Shown piece by piece: positions 20 through 25,495 of a DNA stretch of 64,000 nt (positions are counted from its first letter, which is position 1; each line of letters opens with the position of its first letter). The stretch comes from a virus (Duplodnaviria > Caudoviricetes), in the IMG/VR virus record IMGVR_UViG_3300037010_001838. One strand, written 5' to 3'. The notes under the pieces were generated by a model that saw only the letters and a list, made by a program, of their open reading frames with translations, was not told where the DNA came from and searched no databases. The translations under genes and the position numbers were made by a program.

Positions 20-26
20 AAACAGA

Positions 27-380: not shown

Positions 381-436
381 GTATTGTAATAACAGAACTC
401 TAATATGAGTTAAACGATTTTTTAACCACAAAGGAA

Positions 437-799
437 ATGATGATGAAACAATACTTTTTAGGAAATTTTGGTGATGTAGAAGACGTTGAACACAAATTTC
501 AGATAGCACTGAATGATGGTGAAAAGATCTTATTAGCTTGGTATTCGTACGAAGATTATAGTGGATCCGCGTTTGTGTTGTATGAGCAAAACGGTAAACT
601 GTATGAGGTTAATGGATCACACTGTTCGTGTTATGGTTTGGAGGAACAGTTCCAACCAGAAGAAACGTCAGTAGAAGCGTTGGAATATAGAATGAATAAA
701 GGTACTTTGGGTCGTCGTGTATATTACAGCGAAGAAGGTTCCTTCAAAAATGAATTGTGTGATGTGTTGCAATTATATAAACAAAGACACAGAAAGTAA
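437..799 (+). CDS. hypothetical phage protein
   Basis: 120-aa ORF with SD (aagga); YSYEDYSG and GSHCSCYGLE motifs. Confidence 0.7.
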   Translation: MMMKQYFLGNFGDVEDVEHKFQIALNDGEKILLAWYSYEDYSGSAFVLYEQNGKLYEVNGSHCSCYGLEEQFQPEETSVEALEYRMNKGTLGRRVYYSEEGSFKNELCDVLQLYKQRHRK

Positions 800-823
800 C
801 AAACGGACAAAAAATCGTTCAAT

Positions 824-899
824 GGGACCATAACTCAGTTGGTAGAGTATCTGCCCTACAAGCAGACTGTCATCGGTTCGAACCCGGTTGGTCCTACCA
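824..899 (+). tRNA. tRNA-Val(TAC)
   Basis: tctgc-ccTACaa-gcaga; canonical D and T arms; CCA. Confidence 0.93.
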
Positions 900-905
900 A
901 ACAAC

Positions 906-990
906 ACCACTGTGGCCGATAGGTTAGGCACAGGACCGATAATCCTGGAGGGAAACCTCGAAGTTGGTTCGATTCCAACCGGTGGTACCA
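906..990 (+). tRNA. tRNA-Ile(GAT) with long variable arm
   Basis: cagga-ccGATaa-tcctg; 15-nt variable region gagg-gaaa-cctc-gaa; acceptor accactg/cggtggt; A73; CCA. Confidence 0.85.
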
Positions 991-1084
991 AATCAACACC
1001 GTCAAATAGCATTCGGTCTGCTATACCGAAGATGACGAAAGGGTGTGTACAACCTGACAGTAGTAGCGTGTTGTTTTAACTTTT

Positions 1085-1164
1085 GGGTGTGGGGACTGCA
1101 TGGCGTGGTCACCGGACTGTCACTTCGGAAAATCAGGAGGGTTCAATTCCCTTCACACCCGCCA
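1085..1164 (+). tRNA. tRNA-Asp(GTC)
   Basis: ccgga-ctGTCac-ttcgg; acceptor gggtgtg/cacaccc; G73; CCA. Confidence 0.88.
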
Positions 1165-1172
1165 AAAATTAT

Positions 1173-1244
1173 CTCTCATCTAGGGGAACTAGCTTATTGA
1201 CTACGAATCAATTCTGGATCGTTCAACTCGGTCATGGGGGGCCA
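1173..1244 (+). tRNA. atypical tRNA-Arg(ACG)
   Basis: attga-ctACGaa-tcaat; T arm gatcg-ttcaact-cggtc; acceptor ctctcat/atggggg; short D region; CCA. Confidence 0.6.
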
Positions 1245-1324
1245 ACATCATAAACAAATGTTGATATTAGTCTTTGTATTCAATACAATACAATGAGAGA
1301 ACAAACTTTTAAAGATTATTAACT

Positions 1325-1594
1325 ATGTCTAACACATTAAGACACAAAGAGAAGAATAAATCCAAAAGAGCAATACGTCAATATCGGGAAGATACAGATT
1401 GCTCTACCGAACACCCGTTTTGGATAGGTAAAGAAGAATTGGAAAACCCTGAACTGTTAAACATATTATACGATTTTTTGAATAAACCAGGGACTCGGCA
1501 TGGAAACAAAAGACGCTTTGAAGCATACATGAAGTGGAAAAAACGAAAGAAACAAAGAATTAAGTTAAACAAATTAGTTGATGAAATAGAATAA
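1325..1594 (+). CDS. hypothetical basic protein
   Basis: 89-aa K/R-rich ORF between tRNAs. Confidence 0.55.
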   Translation: MSNTLRHKEKNKSKRAIRQYREDTDCSTEHPFWIGKEELENPELLNILYDFLNKPGTRHGNKRRFEAYMKWKKRKKQRIKLNKLVDEIE

Positions 1595-1599
1595 TTATT

Positions 1600-1683
1600 G
1601 GAAGATGAACTGTTCTGGTGTTCAGGTTCGTTTGCTAAACGAAACGCTCCGCAAGGGGTGGGGTCCGATTCCTCCGTCTTCCG
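1600..1683 (+). tRNA. tRNA-Ser(GCT), no encoded CCA
   Basis: ttcgt-ttGCTaa-acgaa; long variable arm ctcc-gcaa-gggg; acceptor ggaagat/gtcttcc; followed by CCT. Confidence 0.88.
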
Positions 1684-1840
1684 CCTGGCACGCAAGATAG
1701 ATATACCGGTTGTCTCTAGTTGGAAATGATGTGAAAAATATTTGTGCACAAATATTGTAGCACGTTTTCATTAACTTTTATGCCGCCAAATTATAAATAT
1801 TCGTTTAATTAAAACACTTTAAAGTAATGCACCTTTATTC

Positions 1841-1912
1841 CCCCTTGCCAATGGAGTGGTGGGACGCCTTCTAAGCGACCTTATGCCTGTTCGATTCAGG
1901 CCAAGGGGACCA
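1841..1912 (+). tRNA. tRNA-Arg(TCT)
   Basis: cgc-ctTCTaa-gcg; T arm gcctg-ttcgatt-caggc; acceptor ccccttg/caagggg; CCA. Confidence 0.8.
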
Positions 1913-2246
1913 ATACACAATTCTGTGTATTTCTGTAGTACAAATACAACAATGGGGTTTTAGTGTAAACGTGAAAGCACGAGTCAACAGACGAAGAAAA
2001 AAGTCCACAACTTTTTATATCCCACCCCAAAAAAGGAATTTTATCATGAACGTTAAAGAGTTAGTGAAAGACCAAACTGTACATTTTCAGTTTTGAATTA
2101 TGGTATAAAACAAATAATGGATTTGAATTTCCTGTTCCAGTATCAGACACAGGGGATGGAGTATTTAACGATTCCGACAAAGCAATATTGTTTATGCGTT
2201 ACATTAGAAAACATTTAGATAATATTGAACAAGGGAAAATTAACAA

Positions 2247-2678
2247 TTAACCTTTTGTAAAATAATATAGTTCTTTGGTTTTAAACGTTTCCTTATACAT
2301 TTTCCACCCTGGAACTTTAATAGATTGAGCCATTCGGTTGTATAATTTTACTCTGGATGGTTCATCTAATTTTGCAGAAAAGAAGAACGTAACAACTTTT
2401 GGATATAATTCAATCCATTTTTTAATACACTGGATAACAGCAGCCATAACTTGAGAAGCATTTCCGGAACCCGTTATTCCGTGTGACGTTTGATTTCCTT
2501 TTTGAGCACGGAATGCAACGTTCCAAACCTGATTTCCTTTGTCATCATTCGTTTGTGTCTCATAAGCATGGAAAACATATTCCATCTCCCCAACCACGAA
2601 AAACATTTTACATTCCTCATATGTTTTAACGTCAACATGTATTTCTACACTCGAATTAAAAATCTCATTCAATCTCAT
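2247..2678 (-). CDS. hypothetical protein with MRLNEIF N-terminus (possible head-internal protein)
   Basis: Start at second Met; late-type cATAAATA at 2709-2702 on - strand. Confidence 0.65.
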   Translation of the reverse strand: MRLNEIFNSSVEIHVDVKTYEECKMFFVVGEMEYVFHAYETQTNDDKGNQVWNVAFRAQKGNQTSHGITGSGNASQVMAAVIQCIKKWIELYPKVVTFFFSAKLDEPSRVKLYNRMAQSIKVPGWKMYKETFKTKELYYFTKG

Positions 2679-3035
2679 TTCATGTCCCAATCGTTATATA
2701 ATATTTATGTTGTCTTTTAACATTAGTGTAAGTATGATGTCGATATAGCAATTTTAGGATAAATCATGAACCAAGGAACTAAAACGTGGGTTAGTACAAA
2801 GACAAAGATGCTGTCGGTGACCATTACGTAATTATGGAATTTTCGTCGAGAACTATACCTGGACTGGTGTGATAAGTTTTTCTTTGGGATGGCTTGGACA
2901 TAACTTATATGTGTATAATACAACACTGAACACCATGGCGCGGTAGCTTCACAAGAATGTGATTCAGTGTGAAAAAGACCTTCCAAGGAACCAACACTGC
3001 ATTGCAACAATAATTATTACGCCAGGAAAAATCAA

Positions 3036-3395
3036 ATGAGAAAGAATGACTTGATTAAAATGTTAACAGAACTTGAAGGCAATCCTGAAGTCGTGTTGTG
3101 GAATGGTATGGTCGGCGATTATATGCACATCGATTCCAAATTCATTGAAGGAAGTTTAGTTAGAATGACATTCGAAAATTACATGAAACAGTGTCAATTT
3201 GAAGAAGGTAGACACCAAAATAACATGAACTTTCAATTTACACCTGAAGAGGTTAAAGAACTGAAAAATTCTTACAAAAGATATGTTGATTGGGAAGACG
3301 ATGCATACGTTACTGACAAGGATATTGCTGAAAAACGATATAGCAGCAAACGAGTTGTATATATCAATTCAAAGCCTCGAGGTATTACATCTTGA
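3036..3395 (+). CDS. hypothetical protein (TGA stop possibly premature)
   Basis: 119-aa ORF with SD; frame stays open for 8 more codons (DRLGSIEY) after TGA. Confidence 0.6.
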   Translation: MRKNDLIKMLTELEGNPEVVLWNGMVGDYMHIDSKFIEGSLVRMTFENYMKQCQFEEGRHQNNMNFQFTPEEVKELKNSYKRYVDWEDDAYVTDKDIAEKRYSSKRVVYINSKPRGITS

Positions 3396-3495
3396 GACCG
3401 CCTTGGAAGTATAGAGTATTAATATACACTTAAAGAAAATTTAAATGGTGCTCAAAAGTATACAACCGATATGTAACTATAACAGGTGACCCAGA

Positions 3496-3783
3496 ATGAA
3501 CATTTTTGATAAACGTTGGTTAAATGCACGCAAATTCACTGAAAAGGTTAATTCTATTATTTCTGAAAATGAAGACTGCTTTGTGTTTTTTGATGGAGAA
3601 TCGTTTGATGAAATTAAGATCGATGAAGAACATCGGGAAATTTTATTAGTCTCAACTAATTGTGTTGTGTGCATTTACAATGGCGATAAAGATTGCGATG
3701 AAGGTGCTCATACTACATCAAAAGAATGGTTAACGGACACAAAACAACGATTACAAATTTTCAAAGAAATTCAGATTGAGTAA
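3496..3783 (+). CDS. hypothetical protein
   Basis: 95-aa ORF in + strand run. Confidence 0.6.
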   Translation: MNIFDKRWLNARKFTEKVNSIISENEDCFVFFDGESFDEIKIDEEHREILLVSTNCVVCIYNGDKDCDEGAHTTSKEWLTDTKQRLQIFKEIQIE

Positions 3784-3794
3784 GGAATTTTAAC

Positions 3795-4204
3795 ATGACA
3801 CACAAAATAGCCATAATACACGTCGTTGGTGGGCATTGTAGAGACTACAATGATTATGACAATAAAATTGTTTCAAGTATTTCTGAATGGGAAGATGTAG
3901 ACGATGATACGTTTAATCTATTAGTTAACTCTACCAATCACTTAACAAATAATTATCAAATCATAGAACACGTTAAGACAGACGATATTTTTGTTATAAA
4001 AAATGTTAAACAGTATATTAAGATGGTTGAAGAACAAAAACGTCGAGAAGATGAGGCAGAAGTAGAACGGGCAAAAAAGCACAACTTCGAGCTCAAAAGG
4101 CAAAAGAACGAAAGTTACAAAAACTTAGAAAAGATAAAGAATCTAGGCGTTTATTGTTAGAACAACTTCAAAAAGAATTTAAAGTTGACACCAAAAAGGA
4201 ATAA
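3795..4204 (+). CDS. hypothetical protein; C-terminal coiled coil lies in the -1 frame after A_AAA_AAG
   Basis: 0 frame ends at 4160; -1 frame from 4079 reads AQLRAQKAKERKLQKLRKDKESRRLLLEQLQKEF and stops at 4204, just before the next ATG. Confidence 0.6.
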
Positions 4205-4206
4205 AA

Positions 4207-4413
4207 ATGGATAAGCGAAAAGTAAAACAAGCAGTAAAACCAGCACCAGTTCCAGGGATTTTTGAAAACCCGATAAATCAGGAGCGGTGGGAATGCAACG
4301 ACATCTATGACATTCGTTCAATCGACGGAGTTGAGTTTCTTCAAGTTCATAAGTATGGAAATGATAGAACAGTGTTAATGCGCAAAGATGCTTTAAAAAA
4401 GGTTAAGAAGTAA
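4207..4413 (+). CDS. hypothetical protein
   Basis: 68-aa ORF with SD. Confidence 0.65.
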   Translation: MDKRKVKQAVKPAPVPGIFENPINQERWECNDIYDIRSIDGVEFLQVHKYGNDRTVLMRKDALKKVKK

Positions 4414-4421
4414 GACTCTTT

Positions 4422-4497
4422 CTCGTCGAAGCCAAAGGGAAAGGCAATAGTTTCCTAAACTATTATTTTGTCAGTTCGAATCTGACCGACGGGACCA
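4422..4497 (+). tRNA. tRNA-Arg(CCT)
   Basis: atagt-ttCCTaa-actat; T arm gtcag-ttcgaat-ctgac; acceptor ctcgtcg/cgacggg; CCA. Confidence 0.9.
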
Positions 4498-4514
4498 ATT
4501 TATGGAGATGAAAA

Positions 4515-4802
4515 ATGAACAACGATATCAGATATACGACGTGTAAAAAATGTGGACAAGTTCATTTTAGTGTATCATTAGCATATGTTCAAAATATTGT
4601 TAACACTTTTAATGAATATTTCGATACACTATCGATTGAAGATCAACAAACATTATATAATGGACAAAGATCTTCAATAACTCCATATACAAAATGTGTT
4701 GTTTGTGGTAACCCATACACAAATTTTAAACTTTTTGAAAATAACGATTGCCCTTCTGGTGTAACTATTAATCCAATCTTGGAAAGGAATGAAAAACTAT
4801 GA
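4515..4802 (+). CDS. hypothetical protein with two CxxC motifs
   Basis: CKKC and CVVC; SD ggag. Confidence 0.6.
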   Translation: MNNDIRYTTCKKCGQVHFSVSLAYVQNIVNTFNEYFDTLSIEDQQTLYNGQRSSITPYTKCVVCGNPYTNFKLFENNDCPSGVTINPILERNEKL

Positions 4803-5017
4803 CTGAACAATTTATTATCAATGATAAAGAAGTAAATGTTAATTCGTTGGAGGTTGATGGAGTTGATTCTTTAGATTATCCTGATTTCTGTGATGCTTAT
4901 TTCTGTTCAGGTACGTTTGAAGATGGGTCAAATATGTCTGATGATGAATTGAATGAGTTTTCCGATAAATATGGGTATATTTTAAATGAAAAGGCCCATG
5001 AAAGCCTTCAAGGATAA
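4799..5017 (+). CDS. hypothetical acidic protein
   Basis: 72 aa; ATGA overlap; DYPDFCDAY motif. Confidence 0.65.
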   Translation: MTEQFIINDKEVNVNSLEVDGVDSLDYPDFCDAYFCSGTFEDGSNMSDDELNEFSDKYGYILNEKAHESLQG

Positions 5018-5166
5018 GTCAAATGGTAATTAAAACAACGTCTTTAAAAGCAATGGCAACCGTGATTCGGTTTTTACGTGGTAAAAATCATGTTTTATAT
5101 AATCACTTTATGATTATTGGAAACCAACACGCTTAATAATAAATACTCGAATAACCGAGAAAAATA

Positions 5167-5406
5167 ATGAAATTAAAACAATTGTTTGAAACTGAATTAT
5201 ATAAGTTTTATTGTTCAAAGTCCAATGGATTTATCACGAGTGCTGCTAGTCTTACACCAGAAGTGATTTCGACAATGAAGAAACATTCTGAAAAGACGGG
5301 ATACCCTGTCGAAGTAAAGAAAGATGGAAAGGTTGTTGGAAAGATTACGAAGAGTGGTATGGAAAAGTTGAATGAAAGTGAAATCACAAAAGGTAAGACA
5401 AAATAG
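5167..5406 (+). CDS. hypothetical protein with MKLKQLFE N-terminus
   Basis: Late-type ATAAATA at 5139-5145. Confidence 0.65.
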   Translation: MKLKQLFETELYKFYCSKSNGFITSAASLTPEVISTMKKHSEKTGYPVEVKKDGKVVGKITKSGMEKLNESEITKGKTK

Positions 5407-5638
5407 TTGTGTGAAGCTGCAACCCATTTAATGTCCGAAAGAGTGGAAGATACACAAGCGGATTTAGTAGACGAGTTTACTGAACTATCAAAAAAACATA
5501 GGAACCACGCCGACTTCGTACGCTTGAAAAACAATTTGACAGAGGTATGAGGGATTTCAAAAAGGATATGAAAAAGATGACGAAGATTTGAAAAAATCTA
5601 AAGATTATGAAGTTGCAACAGTTATCTGTAAACTTTTG

Positions 5639-5667
5639 TTGACTTTCATAAATAAGTCATATATACT
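5639..5667 (+). promoter_or_regulatory. sigma70-type promoter of the leader/tRNA operon
   Basis: TTGACT-17 nt-TATACT. Confidence 0.85.
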
Positions 5668-5703
5668 TATAACACTAACTTAACAAACTTAAAGAATTTA
5701 CAA

Positions 5704-5805
5704 ATGTTCGATTCAACAAAACCAATTTTTATCAATAATGTAAACGTTAATAATAAACGTTCACACGCTGAGGCATTGACTGTTGAAATCAAACTAATCA
5801 TCTGA
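5704..5805 (+). CDS. putative attenuator leader peptide (33 aa, MFDSTKPIFINNVNVNNKRSHAEALTVEIKLII)
   Basis: Short ORF between promoter and terminator; codon run atc aat aat gta aac gtt aat aat aaa; too short for the ORF track. Confidence 0.7.
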   Translation: MFDSTKPIFINNVNVNNKRSHAEALTVEIKLII

Positions 5806-5833
5806 AAGTAAACAAAAGTTAATAGGCCTCGGC
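5767..5833 (+). promoter_or_regulatory. antiterminator helix
   Basis: gctgaggc-attgact (5767-5781) pairs with agttaat (5817-5823) + gcctcggc (5826-5833); 15 bp, 2-nt bulge; competes with the terminator 5' strand. Confidence 0.75.
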
Positions 5834-5858
5834 AGAGAAATCTCCCGAGGCTTTTTTT
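5826..5858 (+). terminator. rho-independent terminator (attenuator)
   Basis: gcctcgg-c-aga-gaaa-tct-c-ccgaggc followed by T7. Confidence 0.9.
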
Positions 5859-5878
5859 ATGTTCTTTAAAAATTTAAT

Positions 5879-5952
5879 AGTCCCTTAACTCAATGGTAGA
5901 GTGCTGTCGTGACATGGCAGATACAGAAGTTCAATTCTTCTAGGGACTACCA
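5879..5952 (+). tRNA. tRNA-Val(GAC)
   Basis: ctgtc-gtGACat-ggcag; acceptor agtccct/agggact; CCA. Confidence 0.85.
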
Positions 5953-5965
5953 AAGTTTCACTTGC

Positions 5966-6050
5966 TCCGGTCGGACTGGCTTGGTGAAGGTCTCGCACTG
6001 TTAATGCGAAGGCTCCGAAAGGAGGCGAGGTTCGATTCCTCGGACCGGAG
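5966..6050 (+). tRNA. tRNA-Asn(GTT) with long variable arm, no encoded CCA
   Basis: tcgca-ctGTTaa-tgcga; 16-nt variable region with ctcc-gaaa-ggag; acceptor tccggtc/gaccgga; G73. Confidence 0.85.
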
Positions 6051-6065
6051 CAAGTGGAATTTAAT

Positions 6066-6140
6066 GGGGTGTTAGTGTCAGCGGAAGCACAGAAGACTTT
6101 TAATCTTTTAGGCTGGATTCGAATTCCAGGCGCCCTACCA
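6066..6140 (+). tRNA. tRNA-Lys(TTT)
   Basis: gaaga-ctTTTaa-tcttt; acceptor ggggtgt/gcgccct; CCA. Confidence 0.88.
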
Positions 6141-6149
6141 AAATATAAT

Positions 6150-6223
6150 GCACCGCAAGCATTAAGGTGATGCAATAGGCTCTTACCCTGTAGAACACGG
6201 CTCAATACCGTGGCGGTGTACCA
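6150..6223 (+). tRNA. tRNA-Lys(CTT)
   Basis: atagg-ctCTTac-cctgt; T arm cacgg-ctcaata-ccgtg; acceptor gcaccgc/gcggtgt; CCA. Confidence 0.8.
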
Positions 6224-6228
6224 TATTT

Positions 6229-6312
6229 CCATCCGACACCGAACTGGTACGGTACGAGACTTTTAATCTCGCGTCTTTGACTATGAGGGTTCGAATCCCT
6301 CCGGGTGGACCA
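6229..6312 (+). tRNA. tRNA-Lys(TTT) with long variable arm
   Basis: cgaga-ctTTTaa-tctcg; 13-nt variable region c-gtc-ttt-gac-tat; A73; CCA. Confidence 0.85.
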
Positions 6313-7081: not shown

Positions 7082-7110
7082 TTGACCCTTTAATCGTTTC
7101 TGTATATAAT
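7082..7110 (+). promoter_or_regulatory. sigma70-type promoter of second tRNA cluster
   Basis: TTGACC-17-TATAAT. Confidence 0.85.
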
Positions 7111-7121
7111 ATTCCTTAATA

Positions 7122-7198
7122 TGTCCCGTTAGCTCAGTTGGATAGAGCACTTGTGTGACATGCAATATACGGCAGTTCAATTCTGCCGGGGACTACCA
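7122..7198 (+). tRNA. tRNA-Val(GAC), imperfect acceptor
   Basis: ttgt-gtGACat-gcaa; canonical D/T arms; two acceptor mismatches; CCA. Confidence 0.65.
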
Positions 7199-7211
7199 AA
7201 GTTTCAAGTGT

Positions 7212-7324
7212 TCCAGTTGAGCCGCGGGGTGTGGCAGCGGACTGATGCAAAAGCCCCTTCTAACGAGGAGGCTTTGATTAATCCGTGACGAAAGTCTAGT
7301 TTGGTTCGACACCAAAAACTGGAG
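7212..7324 (+). tRNA. tRNA-Asn(GTT)-like gene with a 33-nt hairpin insertion (7245-7277) in the anticodon
   Basis: Acceptor tccagtt/aactgga+G73; D stem gcc/ggc; anticodon stem gcgga/tccgt; ctg[insert]ttaa = ctGTTaa; variable arm gac-gaaa-gtc; T arm tttgg-ttcgaca-ccaaa. Confidence 0.7.
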
Positions 7325-7341
7325 CAGTTGGAATTTTATAT

Positions 7342-7455
7342 GGAGGTCTAGCCTAGTGGATAGGCACCGGACTTATTCGAGCATCTGCGAAATCGGGTGT
7401 TCCTGTTAATCCGGACCGTAATGGTATAGCGTGAGTTCGAATCTCCGGGCCTCTA
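7342..7455 (+). tRNA. tRNA-Lys(TTT)-like gene with a 31-nt hairpin insertion (7375-7405) in the anticodon
   Basis: Acceptor ggaggtc/ggcctct+A73; D stem gcct/aggc; anticodon stem ccgga/tccgg; ctt[insert]ttaa = ctTTTaa; variable arm acc-gtaat-ggt; TTCGAAT T loop. Confidence 0.7.
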
Positions 7456-7466
7456 CCGAATTATTT

Positions 7467-7540
7467 GGATTGCAAGCATTAAGATGGTGCAGTGAGCTTT
7501 CACCTCACAGAACACGGATTGTTGTTGTGGAAGTATACCA
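7467..7540 (+). pseudogene. degenerate tRNA (TTC, Glu anticodon), paralogue of tRNA-Lys(CTT) at 6150
   Basis: Shares gcaagcattaag and agaacacgg with the 6150 tRNA; same 74-nt length; gtgag-ctTTCac-ctcac intact; T loop and acceptor decayed. Confidence 0.55.
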
Positions 7541-7568
7541 GTGTAACGGATAACACACTCGTCTTTCG

Positions 7569-7576
7569 TATAAATA
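7569..7576 (+). promoter_or_regulatory. T4-type late promoter for the endonuclease gene
   Basis: TATAAATA about 25 nt upstream of the ORF. Confidence 0.6.
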
Positions 7577-7601
7577 AATAAATACAAATCGGAAGATCGT
7601 A

Positions 7602-8426
7602 TTGGTGAGAAGAAACAAGCAGTGTGATAAGTGTGGAGATTTAATCTCACTATCGAATATATCAAAACACGAGAAATCGTGTAATGGGACGGGTAAAACA
7701 AATAAACCAAAATTGTTATGTTGTCCGTATTGTAACATAAACTTGGCCGAACACTACCTAACTACACCCAGTCGCCGAGCAAATCACGTTAGGTGGTGTA
7801 TTGATAACCCAAAGCATGATGAATATATAGATAACCTTAACATTCACCTTGATAACGCACGTCGCACAGTAATATCCACCCCAGAAGAAGTTAAACGCCG
7901 GGCTTTACTTGTATCACAAAGACACAAAGAAGGTCGATATGAGCAAGCACACAAAGATAGAATAGGTAAAACAGGTAAAAAACATACCCCTGAGACAAAA
8001 GCAAGATTATCAAACATCAGAAAAGAATGGCTTAAAAACAATCCAGACAAACATCCGTGGAAACGTCCTGGAAAAAATATATCAAAACCTTGTGAAGATT
8101 TTAAACAGTTGTTAACAAATAATGAATATGAATATACGTCAGAATTTCAACCGTTGCAAACAAGATATTTCTCTATTGATATTGTATTCCCTCAGTATAA
8201 AGTAGGAATAGAAATAAACGGAAACCAGCACTACAACAGAGATGGTACACTGAAGACATATTACCAAAACAGGCATGATCTAATAGTAACTGATGGTTGG
8301 GTGTTGTTTGAATTGCCATATTATGAAGTATACAGTCAGGATTCAGTTGACATTATGATGTGTTTACTGGATAATCTACTTATATTAAATGGAAATAACC
8401 AGGCTCTTCTAAAGCCTCATTCGTGA
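7602..8426 (+). CDS. free-standing homing-type endonuclease (Zn fingers + NUMOD3-like motif + DUF559/Vsr-like nuclease)
   Basis: CDKC...HEKSC, CPYC; KKHTPETKARLS; IDIVFPQYKVGIEINGNQHY; GWVLFEL. Confidence 0.75.
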   Translation: MVRRNKQCDKCGDLISLSNISKHEKSCNGTGKTNKPKLLCCPYCNINLAEHYLTTPSRRANHVRWCIDNPKHDEYIDNLNIHLDNARRTVISTPEEVKRRALLVSQRHKEGRYEQAHKDRIGKTGKKHTPETKARLSNIRKEWLKNNPDKHPWKRPGKNISKPCEDFKQLLTNNEYEYTSEFQPLQTRYFSIDIVFPQYKVGIEINGNQHYNRDGTLKTYYQNRHDLIVTDGWVLFELPYYEVYSQDSVDIMMCLLDNLLILNGNNQALLKPHS

Positions 8427-8447
8427 TTCGATTCCACGGCGGGGCCA
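8374..8447 (+). pseudogene. tRNA-Arg(TCT) remnant overlapping the endonuclease 3' end
   Basis: aggct-ctTCTaa-agcct, TTCGATT loop, ggcgggg-CCA; 5' acceptor strand does not pair. Confidence 0.45.
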
Positions 8448-8457
8448 CTTACAACAC

Positions 8458-8585
8458 ATGAAGGTCACACGAAACACACTACTATTCCAGCAGGTTATCG
8501 GTTGACAGTCAAATCTTGGGAAAACGATGGAGACCACAACAAAACTACAGTAACAGCAGGTCTCTCAAATGGACGAAATTGTTGA
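8458..8585 (+). pseudogene. frameshifted remnant of a hypothetical protein
   Basis: TIPAGYRLTVKSWENDGDHNKT is out of frame with the nearest ATG. Confidence 0.3.
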
Positions 8586-8766
8586 TCTAACACTAAGATA
8601 CTACGACCAGATCGCTATAAGGTCAGCAGTGAAACTGTTTTGAGATATAGGTAAAAATCAACAACTACTAACTAATTTTGTAGTTCTAGTAGTTGGTCTT
8701 CTTTTGATTCGGATTCCAGTAGTGCGTCATTTGACTGACGGTGGTGGTTCTTCAGAAGGATGGTAA

Positions 8767-9472: not shown

Positions 9473-9682
9473 TTATAAAATCTTAAGGAAACAAAAAATG
9501 ATTATTTTTTCACTTGTAACATTTATTATTTTATATGTTTTTGTAAGTGTTGGTTGGTTCATTACAACCAACAGTAAGACACTTGCTAATGCCCCTTTGT
9601 GGTGGGAACGGATTTTAGCCGCACCTGTTTTCGCTATTCTGCGGGCAGCAAGTAAACTCATGGGTGATGAATAATATGACAA
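9473..9682 (-). CDS. possible small membrane protein
   Basis: 69-aa ORF with hydrophobic stretches; antisense to local gene flow. Confidence 0.3.
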   Translation of the reverse strand: MSYYSSPMSLLAARRIAKTGAAKIRSHHKGALASVLLLVVMNQPTLTKTYKIINVTSEKIIIFCFLKIL

Positions 9683-9942
9683 TATTTTGGGTTATATTAG
9701 GAATTTTAATATACACAGGATTAAACATTTGGTGGTTTTTAAGTATGATGGGATATAAATTTCGTAAAGGTGAATGTACAGATTGGATTTTTGGTTTTCC
9801 AACATATGTAATCGCATGCTGTTTTGGTCTTTATTATAAGATAAGAGAGAAAAATAATATGTTACTTAATTTGTTCCCTTTTGATCCAGCGAAACAAGCT
9901 GGAAGATATGCTGGAACACCAAAACCAACAGGATGTGTATAG
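9676..9942 (+). CDS. small membrane protein
   Basis: Two hydrophobic segments. Confidence 0.45.
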   Translation: MTIFWVILGILIYTGLNIWWFLSMMGYKFRKGECTDWIFGFPTYVIACCFGLYYKIREKNNMLLNLFPFDPAKQAGRYAGTPKPTGCV

Positions 9943-10934: not shown

Positions 10935-11504
10935 ATGTCACAAATCATATTTATAGACATCGACGGACCACTACTTCCACGTAGAGCTTGGTGTCTACCT
11001 GAAAATATTCAACTTTTAAATGAATCCCGAAAATCTGGAAATCATCCCTTTAGACACAAGGATTTACACAACATTGTTAAATTTGACCCAATTGCCGTCA
11101 GTTTCTTTAACACGTGGACAGAGAACAATGATGTTGTTGGAGTTATTTCATCAAACTGGTTTCATTATGCGTCTCGAGAACAAATTGAACTGACGTTCAA
11201 AAACAACAATTTGAAAATTCAGTTACACCAAAATTGGCACACACCAAGAGCCGGTGATGGTGGGAGAACTGAAGAAATAAAACGTTGGTTGGATGTTCAT
11301 TATGTTGACAATTTCATCATCGTTGATGATGACCCTGACTTAATAAGTCCGTCTGCTTCCATATTAATACCTGATATTGAATCACATCTACTTTATATAC
11401 AGTATGAGATTGGCTTGACATTGGAACACCACGCTCGGGCTTGTAACCTACTAAACGTGGATTTTTCCCATCAAGGATTACCGAAATTAACATATCAAAT
11501 ATAA
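10935..11504 (+). CDS. HAD-superfamily phosphatase (RNA-repair-associated type)
   Basis: IFIDIDGPL (DxD motif I), VISSNW (motif II), IIVDDD (motif IV). Confidence 0.75.
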   Translation: MSQIIFIDIDGPLLPRRAWCLPENIQLLNESRKSGNHPFRHKDLHNIVKFDPIAVSFFNTWTENNDVVGVISSNWFHYASREQIELTFKNNNLKIQLHQNWHTPRAGDGGRTEEIKRWLDVHYVDNFIIVDDDPDLISPSASILIPDIESHLLYIQYEIGLTLEHHARACNLLNVDFSHQGLPKLTYQI

Positions 11505-11511: not shown

Positions 11512-12633
11512 GTGGAACATTTACACGATATTTATACCAAAAAAGGTGACACCTATTTGGATAATCTTTTGAATGATACTGTGGTTATCAACGTGAAGAT
11601 TGACCAGTGTGCATTTGTAATTAAGAAGAATGATGGAATATTTTCTTACCACGGAAGAGAAGGTCGTGGGGAAATTAATAACATAAAACGTTCAACGATG
11701 GACATTTATGAAGATTGCATTCATCATGTTGAGCCTCTTTTATCCAACAAAATTCCAGATAATTCTGAAATATATTTGGAATTGTTTAACGAAAAACTAA
11801 AAACTAAAGTCCAATATTCAACTAAACCCAAAAACAACTTAATATTGTCATATATTAATCAGAGTGGTTCTACACTATTACCAACTAACCCTGAAAATAA
11901 ACGTATTGCATCTCTATTAGACATTTCTGAACCTCCTGTGTTGTTCAGTGGAAAATTATCAGAAAACCAGAAAAAACAAATTAAATCATTTGTTATAACG
12001 TCAGCAGAAGAACGAAAACACAAATATGGTGGAAAAGAGTTTATAGAATATATTATGTCTATATTCAAAACACCAGAACATTTAAGTTGGTTACACGAAG
12101 GGGGATATGAGGGGCTTGTATTTTACTTTGAAAACAATAAATGTTCTGCAAAACTTGTGGACCCACTGTTTACTTCAGATAAACAAGAAGAACGATATAA
12201 TGAAATGAGTGACTTTAAGAAACTGTTAACGGATATTATATTTCAACATTTAGAAGAGGACGTGGATCTATGTATAAAACATACTACATTCTCACTAGAC
12301 GAAACCACAGATGACACTTTTATTTACTTTATATCAAGATTAACGTTGTTAATGTGTATGATACACAGTGAAGAACTTAAAAACCTTAACCAATTTATGT
12401 TAGTTCAAAAGGAGCAACGTTTTTCTAACATAACGTATTCACTTCTTCCGTTGTTTATGGGTCCATTAATTAATAATTATCATTGGTGGGCTGAAGAATT
12501 ATACATCACTCTTGCCAATCTTTTACAAAAAGAAAAGAAAAGAATAAATATAAAACAAGGGTTAACACAAGAGCGAAAAGAAACTATTAATAGAATAGTT
12601 TCAGTGCTTCGTGAACAAGGAATAGTGAAATGA
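11512..12633 (+). CDS. ATP-dependent ligase-fold protein (divergent, RNA-ligase-like)
   Basis: VKIDQ (KxDx, motif I), IYLELF (III), EGLVF (IV), AKLVD (V). Confidence 0.5.
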   Translation: MEHLHDIYTKKGDTYLDNLLNDTVVINVKIDQCAFVIKKNDGIFSYHGREGRGEINNIKRSTMDIYEDCIHHVEPLLSNKIPDNSEIYLELFNEKLKTKVQYSTKPKNNLILSYINQSGSTLLPTNPENKRIASLLDISEPPVLFSGKLSENQKKQIKSFVITSAEERKHKYGGKEFIEYIMSIFKTPEHLSWLHEGGYEGLVFYFENNKCSAKLVDPLFTSDKQEERYNEMSDFKKLLTDIIFQHLEEDVDLCIKHTTFSLDETTDDTFIYFISRLTLLMCMIHSEELKNLNQFMLVQKEQRFSNITYSLLPLFMGPLINNYHWWAEELYITLANLLQKEKKRINIKQGLTQERKETINRIVSVLREQGIVK

Positions 12634-13415
12634 TAAAGACGTTTAAACAGTATCTCATTGAAGAAGGACAAGAATATGATTTATTTGTGGGACGATTCCA
12701 ACCGTTCCACAAAGGGCACACTTCTATAATTGAATCTATGAAGAATCCTATAATCGCAGTTATTAGAGGCAAAAAATCTTCAGAAGATAAAGTTAACAAT
12801 CCATTATCGTTTAAACAACAAAAATCGTTAATACATGAAGTATTTCCTTCTGCAATTGTAATCGAAGTAATGAACGCTAACTTAAATGGAATGTTGTTTC
12901 ATTTAAAAAACGAAGGAAAACAAATTCGTGCAATTTATGCTGGTGAAGATAGAATTAAGCGATATAGAGAAATTGTTGAAGAAAGTAACAAAAAGACAGG
13001 ATTGAATATTCAAGTAAAACAAACACCCCGAATTACATCCGCAACAGATGTAAGAGAAGCAATTCGGTCGAATAATTTCGAAGAATATATACAGTTAATG
13101 CCTATGCAATTAGCTAATGAAGACACATTTATGAAATTACAATCATCTATGCTAATCGAACAACGAAATTCAGAATATCGTGCTTGGTCTGATATGAACG
13201 ATAGAGTAAAACTACGCCGGAAAGAATCAAGAGAAGAAGTAGAACAACGTGTAATTAAACAAATGCAAGACAGTAGAAGAGCGGCGGAACAAGAACGACT
13301 TAAAAGGGAATTAGAAGTTCACAAAACGGCTTTATCAAAAACAAAGCCTGGAACTCCTGCTCACGAAATAATCAAAAAGAAAATTGCACAACATGAACAA
13401 AAAATGAATAGTTAA
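12630..13415 (+). CDS. cytidyltransferase-like HIGH nucleotidyltransferase
   Basis: GRFQPFHKGH, NPLSF, YAGEDR, TSATDVR; N-terminal KTFKQYLIEE. Confidence 0.8.
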   Translation: MIKTFKQYLIEEGQEYDLFVGRFQPFHKGHTSIIESMKNPIIAVIRGKKSSEDKVNNPLSFKQQKSLIHEVFPSAIVIEVMNANLNGMLFHLKNEGKQIRAIYAGEDRIKRYREIVEESNKKTGLNIQVKQTPRITSATDVREAIRSNNFEEYIQLMPMQLANEDTFMKLQSSMLIEQRNSEYRAWSDMNDRVKLRRKESREEVEQRVIKQMQDSRRAAEQERLKRELEVHKTALSKTKPGTPAHEIIKKKIAQHEQKMNS

Positions 13416-13755: not shown

Positions 13756-14097
13756 ATGATAATACTCTCTATGAAAACCCACACATTACGAAAATCAAAA
13801 ACACCAGGGCGTAAAATTCTTACGTTCACGCCCGGTTTTGTAGAAACAATCGTTGAAGCCCATCCTTGGGCAGCGCGGGCCTTTATTGGTTGTGTTCTCG
13901 AAGAGATTGACGCGTCTCTTGATATGGATCAACAACTTTTATTAACAGAACGAATTAAACCAATACCCACAACATCTTACGAACAACACACGACACTACA
14001 CTGGTTACAACAAGGTATACGTGTTCTTGATACTACATTACCAGTTTTATTATCAACACTGGATTTTGCTGCAAAAAGGATCTTTGGTGAAAATTGA
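13756..14097 (+). CDS. hypothetical protein
   Basis: 113-aa ORF after TTGACA-type promoter at about 13709. Confidence 0.55.
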   Translation: MIILSMKTHTLRKSKTPGRKILTFTPGFVETIVEAHPWAARAFIGCVLEEIDASLDMDQQLLLTERIKPIPTTSYEQHTTLHWLQQGIRVLDTTLPVLLSTLDFAAKRIFGEN

Positions 14098-14731
14098 TTT
14101 TAAAAGAACGTGCCCAATTAAGTTATTCCCAATTATTACAGTACTAAACGCATTTTCTGACAACAATTACGTTGTGGGGGGAGCGACTCGTGATTTGTTG
14201 ATGGGAAAAACTCCAAATGATTACGACATCGTTACGGATATCCCAATGAAACGGTTAATCGAACTGTTTGAAGACGGTGGATTTGAAGTGTCTTTGACTG
14301 GTGTCGCACACTTTGTGCTTAACGTCCATTTCAGTAGTTATACCGTTGAAGTCAGCAATTTCCGAAAAGATGTGGTATGTGATGGTCGCCACGCGGAAGT
14401 TGAATTGGGAACAATCGATGATGATGCTCACCGTCGCGATTTTACCGTAAACGCGTTATACATTAACACCAAAACGATGGAGCTTATTGACCCAACTGGT
14501 ATGGGGATGGACGATATTAAAACGAGAACGTTACGTTTTGTTGGAAAACCCAAAGACCGTATCAAAGAAGACTACTTGAGGGTAATCCGTTTTTACAGAT
14601 TTGTTGGCCGTGGATTTACTCCAGACCCGAAATCTTTAAAGGCTTGTCGAGAAATGTTCAACGAAGCATACACCAGTGTCGCAGCCGAACGCGTTCGGGT
14701 TGAAATTGAAAAAATCGTTGGGATTGATTAG
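14087..14731 (+). CDS. cca: tRNA nucleotidyltransferase (CCA-adding/poly(A) polymerase family), compact
   Basis: VVGGATRDLL, DYDIVT, RRDFTVNAL, EDYLRVIRFYRF; GTG start after SD aagga. Confidence 0.85.
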   Translation: MKIDFKRTCPIKLFPIITVLNAFSDNNYVVGGATRDLLMGKTPNDYDIVTDIPMKRLIELFEDGGFEVSLTGVAHFVLNVHFSSYTVEVSNFRKDVVCDGRHAEVELGTIDDDAHRRDFTVNALYINTKTMELIDPTGMGMDDIKTRTLRFVGKPKDRIKEDYLRVIRFYRFVGRGFTPDPKSLKACREMFNEAYTSVAAERVRVEIEKIVGID

Positions 14732-15229: not shown

Positions 15230-15643
15230 ATGACGACTAATTGGGTTAAAGCAACAGGGAAACTTGTATATGAACCAAAACGTCCAGAACTTCGGAAAAC
15301 TCGCCAAAACGATGATTGGTGGTTAATCGTCGAAACGGACCCCCGTATTGCAAATTATTACAATTGGTGGGTTGAAAGAATGTGGGGGCTTCGACTTCAA
15401 CTTCCAGCGTGGAAAGCTCATGTCACAGTTCTTGATGGACGGTATCCAGTTAAGCCTGAATTTCGAAACATGTGGAAAGCTCATGCTGGTGAAATCATCA
15501 CGTTCGAATACAATGTTGAATTTGAACAACATTGGAAGTTCTTCGCACTTCCTGTTCGTAGCAAAAAATTAAACGACTATAGAAAAGAACTTGGATTCAA
15601 ACCAATTAACAATATGCATATTACTTTTGGGAGAATGGTGTGA
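15230..15643 (+). CDS. 2H phosphoesterase-like protein
   Basis: Two HxT motifs: AHVTVL and MHITFG. Confidence 0.65.
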   Translation: MTTNWVKATGKLVYEPKRPELRKTRQNDDWWLIVETDPRIANYYNWWVERMWGLRLQLPAWKAHVTVLDGRYPVKPEFRNMWKAHAGEIITFEYNVEFEQHWKFFALPVRSKKLNDYRKELGFKPINNMHITFGRMV

Positions 15644-17938: not shown

Positions 17939-17940
17939 AA

Positions 17941-25360: not shown

Positions 25361-25368
25361 GATATTAT

Positions 25369-25457: not shown

Positions 25458-25495
25458 CCCTCCGGAACAACTTTATTTAATATTGGAGAAGTAAA

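What the first reader, a model, noticed from the sequence alone, without database searches (positions are those of the whole stretch)
7212..7455. Two adjacent tRNA genes with short hairpin inserts in the anticodon loop (candidate new class of phage tRNA intron)
Seen in sequence: both genes are otherwise complete cloverleaves. Gene 1 reads gcgga-ctg[33 nt, 7245-7277]ttaa-tccgt with G73; removing the insert gives tRNA-Asn(GTT). Gene 2 reads ccgga-ctt[31 nt, 7375-7405]ttaa-tccgg with A73; removing it gives tRNA-Lys(TTT). Both inserts begin with AT, fold as hairpins, can be placed between positions 34 and 35, and share no sequence. Insert-free long-variable-arm Asn and Lys counterparts exist at 5966 and 6229. 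Junctions are ambiguous: other excisions give Ile(GAT) for gene 1 or Asn(GTT) for gene 2, but the discriminator bases favour Asn and Lys. Established knowledge: bacterial tRNA introns are self-splicing group I/II introns of hundreds of nt, short protein-spliced introns are archaeal/eukaryal and mostly at 37/38, and colicin E5 cuts tRNA-Asn at 34/35. I see no clear bulge-helix-bulge. Inference: either protein-spliced introns needing a phage nuclease plus ligase, nuclease-resistant stored pre-tRNAs, or unspliced tRNA mimics/decoys with an extended anticodon stem.
Basis: partly seen in the sequence, partly recalled or inferred. Interest (0 to 1): 0.9.

Follow-up and report, generated by a model that had tools for sequence, protein, structure and literature searches.

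The report
Hairpin-interrupted phage tRNA-Asn and tRNA-Lys genes
Two neighbouring tRNA genes of an uncultured T4-like phage each carry a conserved 31-33-base hairpin in the middle of the anticodon; it is far too small to splice itself, so either proteins cut and re-join these tRNAs, which is not known for bacteria or their viruses, or the RNAs work unspliced as tRNA look-alikes.

Summary
It makes no calls in 1.92 Mb of shuffled sequence. Insert-free homologues of gene 1 (L035 and a contig of run X4) place its insert exactly at 7245-7277, between nt 34 and 35 of a long-variable-arm tRNA-Asn(GUU).

A roughly 90%-identical relative in wastewater runs keeps both inserts. Six of its seven listed substitutions in gene 2 lie in the insert, and all six keep or improve the hairpin. 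Gene 1 shows compensatory changes in the T stem and variable arm. These are therefore not decaying pseudogenes.

Both genes lie in a 1,516-bp cassette (7100-8615). It also holds tRNA-Val, a decayed tRNA and a Vsr/RAP-type homing endonuclease. A 98-99%-identical phage lacks the cassette.

There is no group I core and no bulge-helix-bulge motif. An Rnl-family RNA ligase and HAD, 2H and CCA-adding enzyme genes lie 3.5-8 kb downstream.

My best reading, at about 45%, is a protein-dependent intron. The rival is an unspliced decoy. No RNA data were available.

Not wholly new: Lak megaphage "enigmatic" tRNA introns were published in 2019, and this scan has noted similar inserts in other phages.

The parts
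7100..7121 (+). Left end of the 1,516-bp accessory cassette (whole cassette 7100-8615: tRNA-Val, the two interrupted tRNAs, a decayed tRNA, a homing endonuclease gene)
   Evidence: A 98-99%-identical IMG/VR contig (L001 = G001) joins window 7099 directly to 8616. A 25-kb contig of run X2 (depth 52.7) has the same empty joint, 7098->8616, while contigs at depth 4-5 in the same run carry the cassette.
7082..7099 (+). Upstream part of a sigma-70-like promoter (whole site 7082-7110, TTGACC-17-TATAAT). The -35 box lies in the shared flank and the -10 box inside the cassette.
   Evidence: 11 of 12 matches; boundary. This is a consensus match only.
7122..7198 (+). tRNA-Val(GAC), uninterrupted, with encoded CCA
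   Evidence: 38.4 bits. It is about 80% identical to the tRNA-Val at 5879, and the spacer to the next gene is conserved.
7212..7244 (+). Gene 1, 5' exon: acceptor, D arm, anticodon-stem 5' strand and loop nt C32 U33 G34
7245..7277 (+). Gene 1 insert, 33 nt. It continues the anticodon stem as a bulged rod of about 15 bp with a 5-nt loop.
   Evidence: Fold. The boundaries are fixed by the insert-free homologue L035 and by the X4 contig joint 7244->7278. At most 2 changes and no indel in the wastewater relative.
7278..7325 (+). Gene 1, 3' exon: U35 U36 A37 A38, anticodon-stem 3' strand, GNRA-capped variable arm, T arm, acceptor, G73
   Evidence: In the relative there is a compensatory T-stem change (7301 T>C with 7315 A>G), and the variable arm gains one base pair through two 1-nt insertions while keeping a GNRA loop.
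7342..7374 (+). Gene 2, 5' exon, ending C32 U33 U34 under the Lys reading
   Evidence: Rfam tRNA model 31.1 bits across the whole gene.
7375..7405 (+). Gene 2 insert, 31 nt: a 9-bp hairpin with a 6-nt loop, in register with the anticodon stem
   Evidence: Fold. The hairpin is strand-specific: sense -10.2 against antisense -1.8 kcal/mol. The relative has six substitutions here, all keeping or improving the pairing, including C-G to A-U at 7385/7396.
7406..7457 (+). Gene 2, 3' exon: UUAA, stem, variable arm, T arm with one bulged U, acceptor, A73, then CC
7465..7540 (+). Decayed tRNA-like paralogue of the tRNA-Lys(CTT) gene at 6150-6223. The anticodon arm is intact (loop CUUUCAC) but the acceptor stem is broken.
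   Evidence: 74% match to the main-array region in G001. Not called by ARAGORN and no cloverleaf in the fold.
7602..8426 (+). Free-standing homing endonuclease: N-terminal zinc-finger/NUMOD3 part and a C-terminal Vsr/RAP/DUF559-like nuclease domain
   Evidence: phrog_559 and homing-endonuclease families; homologues in the tRNA clusters of T4-like Escherichia, Klebsiella and Acinetobacter phages; homologues named very-short-patch-repair endonuclease; PF08373, PF04480.
5966..6312 (+). Insert-free counterparts in the main tRNA array: Asn(GTT) with long arm, Lys(TTT), Lys(CTT), Lys(TTT) with long arm
10935..11504 (+). HAD phosphatase of the 'Swiss Army Knife' RNA-repair type
   Evidence: PF18143, E = 1.9e-16; DIDG motif.
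11512..12633 (+). Rnl-family ATP-dependent RNA ligase
   Evidence: AlphaFold2 model with pLDDT 89.7. Foldseek top hits are T4 Rnl2, fungal Trl1 ligase domain and T4 Rnl1, probability 1.0. Lysine K29 is invariant in a KxD motif I.
14021..14731 (+). CCA-adding enzyme / poly(A) polymerase head domain
   Evidence: PF01743, E = 3.3e-29; NCBIfam CCA tRNA nucleotidyltransferase.
15230..15643 (+). Small 2H phosphoesterase candidate
   Evidence: Two HxT motifs, HVTV at residue 64 and HITF at residue 130. The 2H-SAK hit is weak, E = 8e-4 and below the curated cut-off.

Best explanation
**What they are.** The two genes are working copies of a long-variable-arm tRNA-Asn(GUU) and, probably, a tRNA-Lys(UUU). 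Each carries a short intron that cannot splice itself.

**Structure of the transcript.** In the RNA each insert zips the anticodon loop into one continuous rod of about 20 bp. The first insert base, A1, pairs with U35. In gene 1's minimum-free-energy fold U33 pairs with A37.

**Proposed maturation.**
1. An endonuclease that I could not identify, from host or phage, cuts on the 5' side of both partners of the A1:U35 pair.
2. This releases a 33- or 31-nt hairpin, while the tRNA body holds the two halves together.
3. The phage's Rnl-family ligase (11512-12633) re-seals the 7-nt loop.
4. If the cuts leave cyclic-phosphate ends, the HAD and 2H enzymes repair them first.

**Setting.** The pair travels as cargo of a homing-endonuclease cassette that supplies a second Val/Asn/Lys tRNA set.

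**Shown:** the anatomy, the exact junction of gene 1, conservation of the hairpins and cloverleaves, the cassette polymorphism, and the ligase fold.

**Inferred:** that splicing happens at all, the cut sites in RNA, the nuclease, and the use of this ligase.
For: - **Precise interruption.** The insert is a clean 33-nt interruption of an otherwise conserved tRNA-Asn family. The full ancestral loop CUG|UUAA is kept on both sides.
- **Canonical product.** Removing the inserts gives standard tRNAs whose discriminators (G73, A73) fit Asn and Lys.
- **Conserved in a relative.** The wastewater relative keeps both inserts at the same lengths. It has compensatory changes in the gene 2 hairpin, the gene 1 T stem and the gene 1 variable arm. 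Four random substitutions in the stem keep all 9 pairs in only 0.9% of trials.
- **RNA-level structure.** The G-U-rich hairpin of gene 2 folds only in the sense strand.
- **Repair genes nearby.** An RNA ligase and HAD, 2H and CCA-adding enzyme genes lie 3.5-8 kb downstream.
- **Seen elsewhere.** Comparable short inserts that restore canonical loops occur in another phage contig (L007/L044) and in Lak phages (PMC6784885).
Against: - **No RNA evidence.** No RNA run holds the stretch. The two doubtful 'RNA-Seq' runs show only the uninterrupted-insert form.
- **No known excision signal.** There is no bulge-helix-bulge motif and no ribozyme match.
- **The cut geometry fits no known enzyme.** The two cuts lie inside a helix with a 1-nt 5' stagger. 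That fits neither RNase III nor the RNase P / RNase Z minihelix model.
- **Missing enzymes.** No splicing endonuclease and no polynucleotide kinase turned up among the ORFs scanned.
- **Redundancy.** The phage already has insert-free Asn and Lys tRNAs, and a near-identical phage lacks the cassette altogether, so decoding by these copies is dispensable.
- **Thin comparative data.** They come from one relative, seen in low-depth contigs of a single study.
Confidence: 0.45

Rival explanations
1. The RNAs are never spliced. They act as tRNA look-alikes. The normal tRNA body binds a host nuclease that attacks the anticodon arm, or another tRNA-binding factor. The anticodon loop is locked into a double-stranded rod that cannot be cut or decoded. 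The RNA therefore works as a decoy or inhibitor that protects the pool of Asn and Lys tRNAs.
For: - Asn(GUU) and Lys(UUU) are among the published targets of PARIS AriB, and both interrupted genes keep the U36-A-A-U-C motif next to its cut site (PMC12409363). That paper itself suggests some viral tRNAs may act as AriB inhibitors.
- The rod, the cloverleaf and the insert lengths are conserved.
- The phage has other, uninterrupted Asn and Lys tRNAs for decoding.
- No excision signal was found.
- T4 itself encodes stable tRNA-like RNAs of unknown role in its tRNA cluster, beside a homing endonuclease.
Against: - No tRNA decoy of this kind has been demonstrated.
- A decoy has no need to keep the exact ancestral 7-nt loop residues and a matching discriminator, yet both genes do.
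- The same design appears in tRNAs of other specificities (Gly, Tyr, Met/Ile in L007), which are not all known nuclease targets.
Confidence: 0.28
2. The inserts are DNA-level scars or mini-insertions with no RNA role, for example an occupied homing site or the ORF-less remnant of a mobile element. The two genes are then inactive passengers of the endonuclease cassette.
For: - The cassette is dispensable and polymorphic.
- It also carries a clearly decayed tRNA at 7465-7540.
- The region and its analogue L044 are crowded with homing endonucleases.
- Gene 2 has a bulged T stem.
Against: - Compensatory changes in the hairpin, the T stem and the variable arm, with unchanged insert lengths, in a relative from another habitat.
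- The gene 2 hairpin is sense-strand specific, with G-U pairs.
- Both cloverleaves are intact, whereas the neighbouring decayed copy is not.
Confidence: 0.12
3. The interrupted genes are a stored, nuclease-proof reserve. They mature only when a host anticodon nuclease is active: the host enzyme makes the cuts and the phage repair enzymes re-seal the tRNA.
For: - The gene 1 insert sits at 34/35, the site that colicin E5 cuts in tRNA-Asn. This point rests on my own knowledge and was not checked here.
- A repair module is present.
Against: - The sequences at the junctions (G|A and A|U in gene 1; U|A and G|U in gene 2) are not the G-U step that colicin E5 recognises (own knowledge).
- The junctions are base-paired, not in a loop.
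- AriB cuts at 40/41, not at 34/35 (PMC12409363).
- No kinase was found to heal 5'-OH ends.
Confidence: 0.08

Closest known systems
'Enigmatic' tRNA introns of Lak megaphages (Devoto et al. 2019, PMC6784885)
   Same: - They are non-group-I inserts in the anticodon loops of phage tRNA genes.
- Presence/absence alignments define the junctions.
- The mechanism is unknown.
   Different: - The one Lak intron whose sequence I read, in A1 tRNA-Tyr, is 93 nt and contains a T-arm-like element. Here the inserts are plain 31-33-nt hairpins in register with the anticodon stem.
- The hosts and phage lineages differ: Prevotella megaphages against a T4-like phage of about 211 kb from mats and sediments.
Archaeal and eukaryal protein-spliced tRNA introns (bulge-helix-bulge; EndA/TSEN plus RtcB or Trl1)
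   Same: - The introns are short and pair with the anticodon.
- The tRNA body holds the two halves together.
- Ligation is by a protein; the Trl1 ligase domain is a structural neighbour of the phage ligase.
   Different: - No bulge-helix-bulge motif.
- The position is 34/35, not 37/38.
- No EndA-like gene was seen.
- The setting is bacterial and viral.
Group I introns in bacterial and phage tRNA anticodon loops
   Same: The insertion site is the anticodon loop, and homing endonucleases are associated with them.
   Different: They need a catalytic core of about 200 nt or more. The control L019 scores 59.8 bits on RF00028, whereas the window's inserts are 31-33 nt and give no match.
Phage T4 tRNA cluster with SegB and the Pnkp/Rnl1 anticodon-loop repair pathway
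   Same: - A free-standing homing endonuclease sits inside a T4-like tRNA cluster and carries neighbouring tRNA genes with it.
- The phage encodes a ligase able to seal anticodon-loop breaks.
   Different: - SegB is a GIY-YIG enzyme, whereas this one is Vsr/RAP-like.
- T4 tRNAs are uninterrupted.
- No Pnk-type kinase was found here.
Nuclease-resistant phage tRNA variants (T5 tRNA-Lys, tRNA-Thr and tRNA-Asn against PARIS AriB; PMC12409363, PMC10264068)
   Same: Phage copies of just those tRNAs that host nucleases attack, altered in the anticodon arm.
   Different: Those variants differ by point substitutions and decode normally. Here a whole hairpin splits the anticodon.

Membership tests
tRNA (Rfam RF00005 / cloverleaf) | 7-bp acceptor stem, D arm, 5-bp anticodon stem, T arm with a TTCGA-type loop, discriminator | tested here: met
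   ARAGORN drawings; gene 2 scores 31.1 bits with its insert; both are called by default ARAGORN once the insert is removed. Gene 1 with its insert gave no RF00005 match at E <= 10.
tRNA (Rfam RF00005 / cloverleaf) | 7-nt anticodon loop in the primary sequence | tested here: not met
   The loops hold 40 and 38 nt.
Group I intron | Catalytic core (P3-P9) detectable with RF00028 | tested here: not met
   No match at E <= 10 in 7100-7600. The positive control L019 scores 59.8 bits. The inserts are only 31-33 nt.
Archaeal/eukaryal BHB intron | Two 3-nt bulges separated by a 4-bp helix at the splice sites | tested here: not met
   None among 175-6205 suboptimal folds per sequence, within 5 kcal/mol.
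Archaeal/eukaryal BHB intron | A splicing endonuclease (EndA/TSEN) is encoded or available | tested here: inconclusive
   None among about 40 window ORFs scanned. Only 64 kb of a genome of about 211 kb was seen, and the host is unknown.
Lak-type non-ribozyme phage tRNA intron | An insert in the anticodon loop of a phage tRNA, absent from otherwise homologous genes with a clean junction | tested here: met
   (gene 1). No insert-free homologue of gene 2 was found.
Lak-type non-ribozyme phage tRNA intron | The insert itself is tRNA-like (T arm, acceptor-like stem, sometimes a CCA end) | tested here: not met
   Both inserts are plain hairpins with no T-arm motif and no CCA end. By contrast, the 35-nt insert in L007's tRNA-Gly ends in ACCA.
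Any intron | Removal at the RNA level | not testable with these tools
   No RNA run holds the stretch, and no joint was seen in the doubtful cDNA runs.
Free-standing homing-endonuclease cassette (SegB-like) | An endonuclease ORF with flanking cargo, present or absent between near-identical genomes at one site | tested here: met
   endonuclease family. DNA cleavage itself cannot be tested here.
Rnl-family RNA ligase (ORF 11512-12633) | Nucleotidyltransferase fold with the motif I lysine | tested here: met
   No sequence-level match to Pfam or the PDB.

The most novel reading that the evidence does not exclude
Bacterial viruses have a protein-dependent tRNA splicing pathway. Minimal hairpin introns of 31-33 nt, with no ribozyme and no bulge-helix-bulge motif, would be cut out around the A1:U35 pair, and the anticodon loop re-sealed by a phage Rnl-type ligase. 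These plain hairpins would be the smallest members, perhaps the ORF-less end state, of a wider family of mobile inserts in phage tRNAs.
Probability: 0.4. Interest if true: 0.9.

Novelty: new variant of a known kind. Interest (0 to 1): 0.7.

Why it matters
Textbooks hold that bacterial tRNA introns are self-splicing ribozymes and that protein-spliced tRNA introns belong to archaea and eukaryotes. A 31-33-nt hairpin cannot splice itself. If these tRNAs mature, a cut-and-ligate pathway must exist in phage-infected bacteria. That would give phage RNA ligases and "repair" enzymes a routine job beyond undoing host nuclease damage.

If the RNAs stay unspliced, they would be the first tRNA-shaped decoys in the contest over tRNAs between phages and host defences.

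Either way, these are the smallest and simplest examples so far of the "enigmatic" phage tRNA introns. The junction is fixed by insert-free homologues, and candidate enzymes lie nearby. The question can therefore be tested directly with synthetic constructs.

Tried and rejected
- **GenBank phages.** No DNA match to 7100-7560. The ligase finds only uncultured huge phages, so no cultured system is at hand.
- **IMG/VR pattern scans.** Scans for interrupted gene 1 and for either half of gene 2 found nothing. No insert-free homologue of gene 2 was found.
- **RNA evidence.** No run on record as RNA holds the stretch. The two runs labelled 'RNA-Seq cDNA' are probably DNA and show no spliced joint.
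- **RNase III model.** Rejected, because precise excision would need a 1-nt 5' stagger rather than a 2-nt 3' overhang. This follows from the fold and is my inference.
- **RNase P / RNase Z minihelix model** (a lead from earlier scan notes). The helix from A1:U35 to the loop is 12-13 bp, and RNase P could cut at G34|A1. However, a 3' cut after a discriminator would remove U35/U36. The alternative register would give Ile(GAU) on an Asn body with G73. I judge this model unlikely.
- **Bulge-helix-bulge motif.** Absent.
- **Ribozyme or other known RNA family.** None found.
- **Endonuclease inside a split tRNA.** Not so. In Escherichia phage F2 the homologue lies between tRNA-Met and tRNA-Arg. An ARAGORN 'tRNA-Arg with 824-nt intron' in L006 has a poor anticodon stem. 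Most long-intron calls were chimeras of neighbouring tRNAs.
- **ARAGORN call of tRNA-Pro with a 27-nt intron in L035.** Judged doubtful, because a T-arm motif sits inside the 'intron'.
- **Cassette elsewhere in the near-identical phage record.** Absent.
- **T4 rnaC and rnaD.** rnaC is tRNA-like with long arms, but neither is a hairpin-interrupted tRNA.
Full report
**1. The observation**

- ARAGORN in its default mode skips both genes. The Rfam tRNA model missed them in the whole-window search at gathering threshold.
- With introns allowed, ARAGORN calls 7212-7325 as a tRNA with a 33-nt intron and 7342-7457 as tRNA-Lys(ttt) with a 31-nt intron.
- The same settings gave no tRNA call at all in 30 shuffled copies of the window, 1.92 Mb in total.
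- RNAfold gives both genes an acceptor stem, a D arm, a T arm, a stem-loop variable arm and an anticodon arm prolonged by a hairpin.
- In a small search, Rfam's tRNA model scores gene 2 at 31.1 bits, treating the 34 loop-region bases as one insertion.
- Deleting 7245-7277 and 7375-7405 gives sequences that default ARAGORN calls tRNA-Asn(GTT), 81 nt, and tRNA-Lys(TTT), 85 nt.
- The discriminators are G7324 and A7455.
- The two inserts share no sequence; the best local match is 7 nt.

**2. Where the insert sits**

A metagenome contig that carries a 14-gene tRNA array (L035) holds an insert-free homologue of gene 1.

- It has nearly the same D arm and anticodon stem and the same GAAA-capped variable arm. 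It has G73-CCA and the loop CUGUUAA.
- Its acceptor and T stems differ from gene 1 by compensatory changes.
- The alignment shows one clean 33-nt gap between G34 and U35.
- Independently, a 121-nt contig of sediment run X4 joins 7244 directly to 7278, in a different 5' context.

For gene 2 I found no insert-free homologue. Lys(UUU) rests only on A73; Asn(GUU) by a 1-nt shifted excision is still possible.

**3. Real and under selection**

The stretch occurs in contigs of runs X2, X3 and X4, besides X1, which may be the window's own source. It also occurs in an identical JGI contig.

Two wastewater runs from a single study hold a relative that is about 90% identical, and a lake-water run holds a near-identical copy. 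The relative keeps both genes, both inserts and both insert lengths.

*Gene 2.* Six of the seven listed substitutions fall inside the 31-nt insert.
- 7385 C>A with 7396 G>T turns a C-G pair into A-U.
- 7384 T>C turns U-G into C-G.
- 7383 A>G turns A-U into G-U.
- 7376 T>C with 7404 T>G adds pairing at the base of the hairpin.
- The arm becomes more stable, -20.6 against -17.2 kcal/mol.

In simulations, four random substitutions at stem positions keep all nine pairs in 0.9% of trials. Six random substitutions in the insert reach the observed stability in 2.4% of trials.

*Gene 1.*
- The T stem shows a double change, 7301 T>C with 7315 A>G.
- The variable arm gains one base pair through two single-base insertions, going from GAC-GAAA-GTC to GACC-GAGA-GGTC and keeping a GNRA loop.
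- The insert itself has at most two changes.

The gene 2 hairpin folds only in the sense strand, -10.2 against -1.8 kcal/mol, because of its G-U pairs. The selected structure is therefore in the RNA. I take "decaying pseudogenes" to be refuted.

The caveat is that all this comparative evidence comes from low-depth contigs (2-8x) of one study.

**4.

An IMG/VR contig that is 98-99% identical to the window (L001 = G001, 178.8 kb) lacks window 7100-8615 precisely. It does not carry the segment anywhere else. In run X2 the empty allele sits on a 25-kb contig at depth 52.7, while cassette-bearing contigs in the same run have depth 4-5.

The 1,516-bp segment holds, in order:
- the -10 box of a promoter-like site whose -35 box lies in the shared flank (TTGACC-17-TATAAT);
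- tRNA-Val(GAC);
- the two interrupted genes;
- a decayed paralogue of the main array's tRNA-Lys(CTT);
- a 274-aa ORF.

The ORF has a zinc-finger/NUMOD3 front part and a Vsr/RAP/DUF559-like nuclease domain. Its homologues sit in the tRNA clusters of T4-like Escherichia, Klebsiella and Acinetobacter phages. In phage F2 the homologue lies between tRNA-Met and tRNA-Arg, which is the position SegB holds in T4.

The gene order Val-Asn-Lys-Lys(CTT)-like and the Val-Asn spacer mirror the main array at 5879-6312. The cassette is therefore a mobile second Val/Asn/Lys set, probably imported from another phage.

The phage is T4-like: rIIA and rIIB lie at 15794-18927. Its genome is about 211 kb, judged from the longest contig that carries the endonuclease.

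**5. What the inserts are not**

- They give no group I match. The control is L019, a roughly 194-nt intron in a phage tRNA-Asn, which scores 59.8 bits on RF00028. The inserts of about 200-436 nt in L003, L012 and L020 carry the same sequence motifs as L019.
- There is no bulge-helix-bulge motif in any suboptimal fold within 5 kcal/mol.
- No other Rfam family matches credibly at E <= 10; the only other hits are chance-level, far below their gathering scores.

In the folds, each insert continues the anticodon stem in register.
- In gene 1's minimum-free-energy fold and in the relative's gene 2 arm, A1 pairs with U35. In gene 1, U33 pairs with A37. The window's own gene 2 fold pairs these bases in a shifted register.
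- The whole arm is about 20 base pairs long.
- In that register, precise excision means cutting on the 5' side of both partners of the A1:U35 pair.
- That is a 1-nt 5' stagger, which does not fit RNase III.
- The RNase P / RNase Z minihelix model, proposed in earlier scan notes for tRNA-shaped inserts, fits the 5' cut but not the 3' cut. This is my inference from the folds.

**6. Candidate enzymes**

Downstream of the cassette lie the following genes.
- An HAD phosphatase of the "Swiss Army Knife" RNA-repair type (10935-11504).
- A 373-aa protein with no Pfam or PDB sequence match. Its AlphaFold2 model (pLDDT 89.7) matches T4 Rnl2, the Trl1 ligase domain and T4 Rnl1 at probability 1.0. It has an invariant motif I lysine.
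- A nucleotidyltransferase that is fused to this ligase in other phages.
- A CCA-adding enzyme.
- A 137-aa protein with two HxT motifs and a weak 2H-SAK hit.

I saw no P-loop kinase and no splicing endonuclease. Only 64 kb of the genome was available.

**7. How general is this?**

Around homologous endonucleases, one other phage contig (L007 = L044) has three clean cases, all with encoded CCA.
- A tRNA-Tyr with a 45-nt insert at 36/37 or 37/38.
- A tRNA that ARAGORN labels SeC(tca). By homology with phage tRNA-Gly genes it is tRNA-Gly(UCC) with a 35-nt insert that ends in ACCA.
- A gene called "tRNA-Pro with a long arm", which folds better as tRNA-Met/Ile(CAU) with a 22-nt hairpin in the loop.

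Devoto et al. 2019 reported "enigmatic" introns in Lak megaphage tRNAs and knew of no earlier report. Their example is 93 nt long and contains a T arm. My literature searches found nothing on the mechanism.

This scan's earlier notes describe related inserts in other phages: 35-68-nt, often tRNA-shaped inserts, several at 34/35 and several in tRNA-Asn, and roughly 467-nt inserts that carry a Vsr/DUF559 nuclease. I used these notes as leads only.

**8. Interpretation**

*Intron reading, about 0.45.* The complete ancestral loop and matching discriminators are kept. The hairpins and cloverleaves are conserved. A ligase is nearby, and the design recurs in tRNAs of several specificities. Together these make a protein-dependent intron the best single reading.

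*Decoy reading, about 0.28.* The main rival is an unspliced tRNA-shaped decoy or inhibitor. Asn(GUU) and Lys(UUU) are published PARIS AriB targets. Both interrupted genes keep the U36-A-A-U-C motif beside the AriB cut site. The phage has uninterrupted copies for decoding.

*Other readings.* Inactive passengers (about 0.12) and nuclease-triggered maturation (about 0.08) are less likely.

Nothing computed here shows RNA processing; that needs an experiment.

**9. Verdict**

This is a real and conserved feature. It is the smallest and simplest variant yet of a barely described kind of phage tRNA interruption, with a well-defined junction, a mobile-cassette setting and candidate enzymes. Interest is 0.7. 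Novelty: new variant of a known kind.

Noticed in passing
window 9664-9942 (+): A 92-aa ORF whose C-terminus matches DsrC/TusE (PF04358, E = 2.6e-7). TusE belongs to the sulfur relay that makes 2-thiouridine at the wobble position of tRNA-Lys, tRNA-Glu and tRNA-Gln, so a phage copy beside a Lys-rich tRNA array is suggestive.
   Followed up: no
window 11512-13415; proteins P0137-P0145: In several other phage contigs the Rnl-like ligase is fused to the cytidylyltransferase/NMNAT-like domain that here forms the next ORF (proteins of about 600 aa carrying PF01467). The two evidently work as one unit, whose chemistry is unknown.
   Followed up: partly
window 7465-7540: A decayed paralogue of the odd tRNA-Lys(CTT) gene at 6150-6223. 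The anticodon arm is perfect but its loop now reads CUUUCAC (a UUC anticodon), and the acceptor stem no longer pairs.
   Followed up: partly
L044 (= L007 contig) 22-522, minus strand: Three consecutive tRNA genes with 22-, 45- and 35-nt anticodon-loop inserts and encoded CCA. ARAGORN's default labels for two of them (Pro with a long arm; SeC) are probably wrong. The 13-kb contig also holds four homing-endonuclease-like ORFs and an intein-bearing ribonucleotide reductase.
   Followed up: partly
L043 9267-9522 and L045 10609-11795: Arrays of tRNA-like units that share one acceptor stem, D arm and T arm (AGUCAGG...CCUGACUAC) but have very different central parts of 84-165 nt. They are not ordinary tRNAs and I could not explain them.
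   Followed up: no
L019 2358-2556; also L003 2482-2765, L012 2448-2734, L020 5540-6048: Group I introns in phage tRNA-Asn, Thr, Ser and Met genes. RF00028 scores 59.8 bits in L019, and the others share its motifs. All lie next to homologues of the same endonuclease family.
   Followed up: partly
window 906-990, 5966-6051, 6229-6312; many loci (L010, L016, L022, L028, L031): Long stem-loop variable arms, often capped by a GNRA loop, on tRNAs with Ile, Asn, Lys, Gly, Val, Thr and Met anticodons. These are frequent in the phage tRNA arrays examined here. With G73, some could be charged by SerRS.
   Followed up: no
window 25368-26071: tRNA-Ser(CGA) is immediately followed by an HNH endonuclease ORF (PF01844, E = 1.7e-14). 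This is a second pairing of a tRNA gene with a homing endonuclease in the same window.
   Followed up: no
L037 (phage T4) 1909-2047, minus strand: T4 species 1 RNA (rnaC) folds with a canonical T arm, a variable-arm-like hairpin and a 57-nt rod where the D and anticodon arms would be. It is a stable tRNA-like RNA of unknown role, next to tRNA-Arg and segB.
   Followed up: partly
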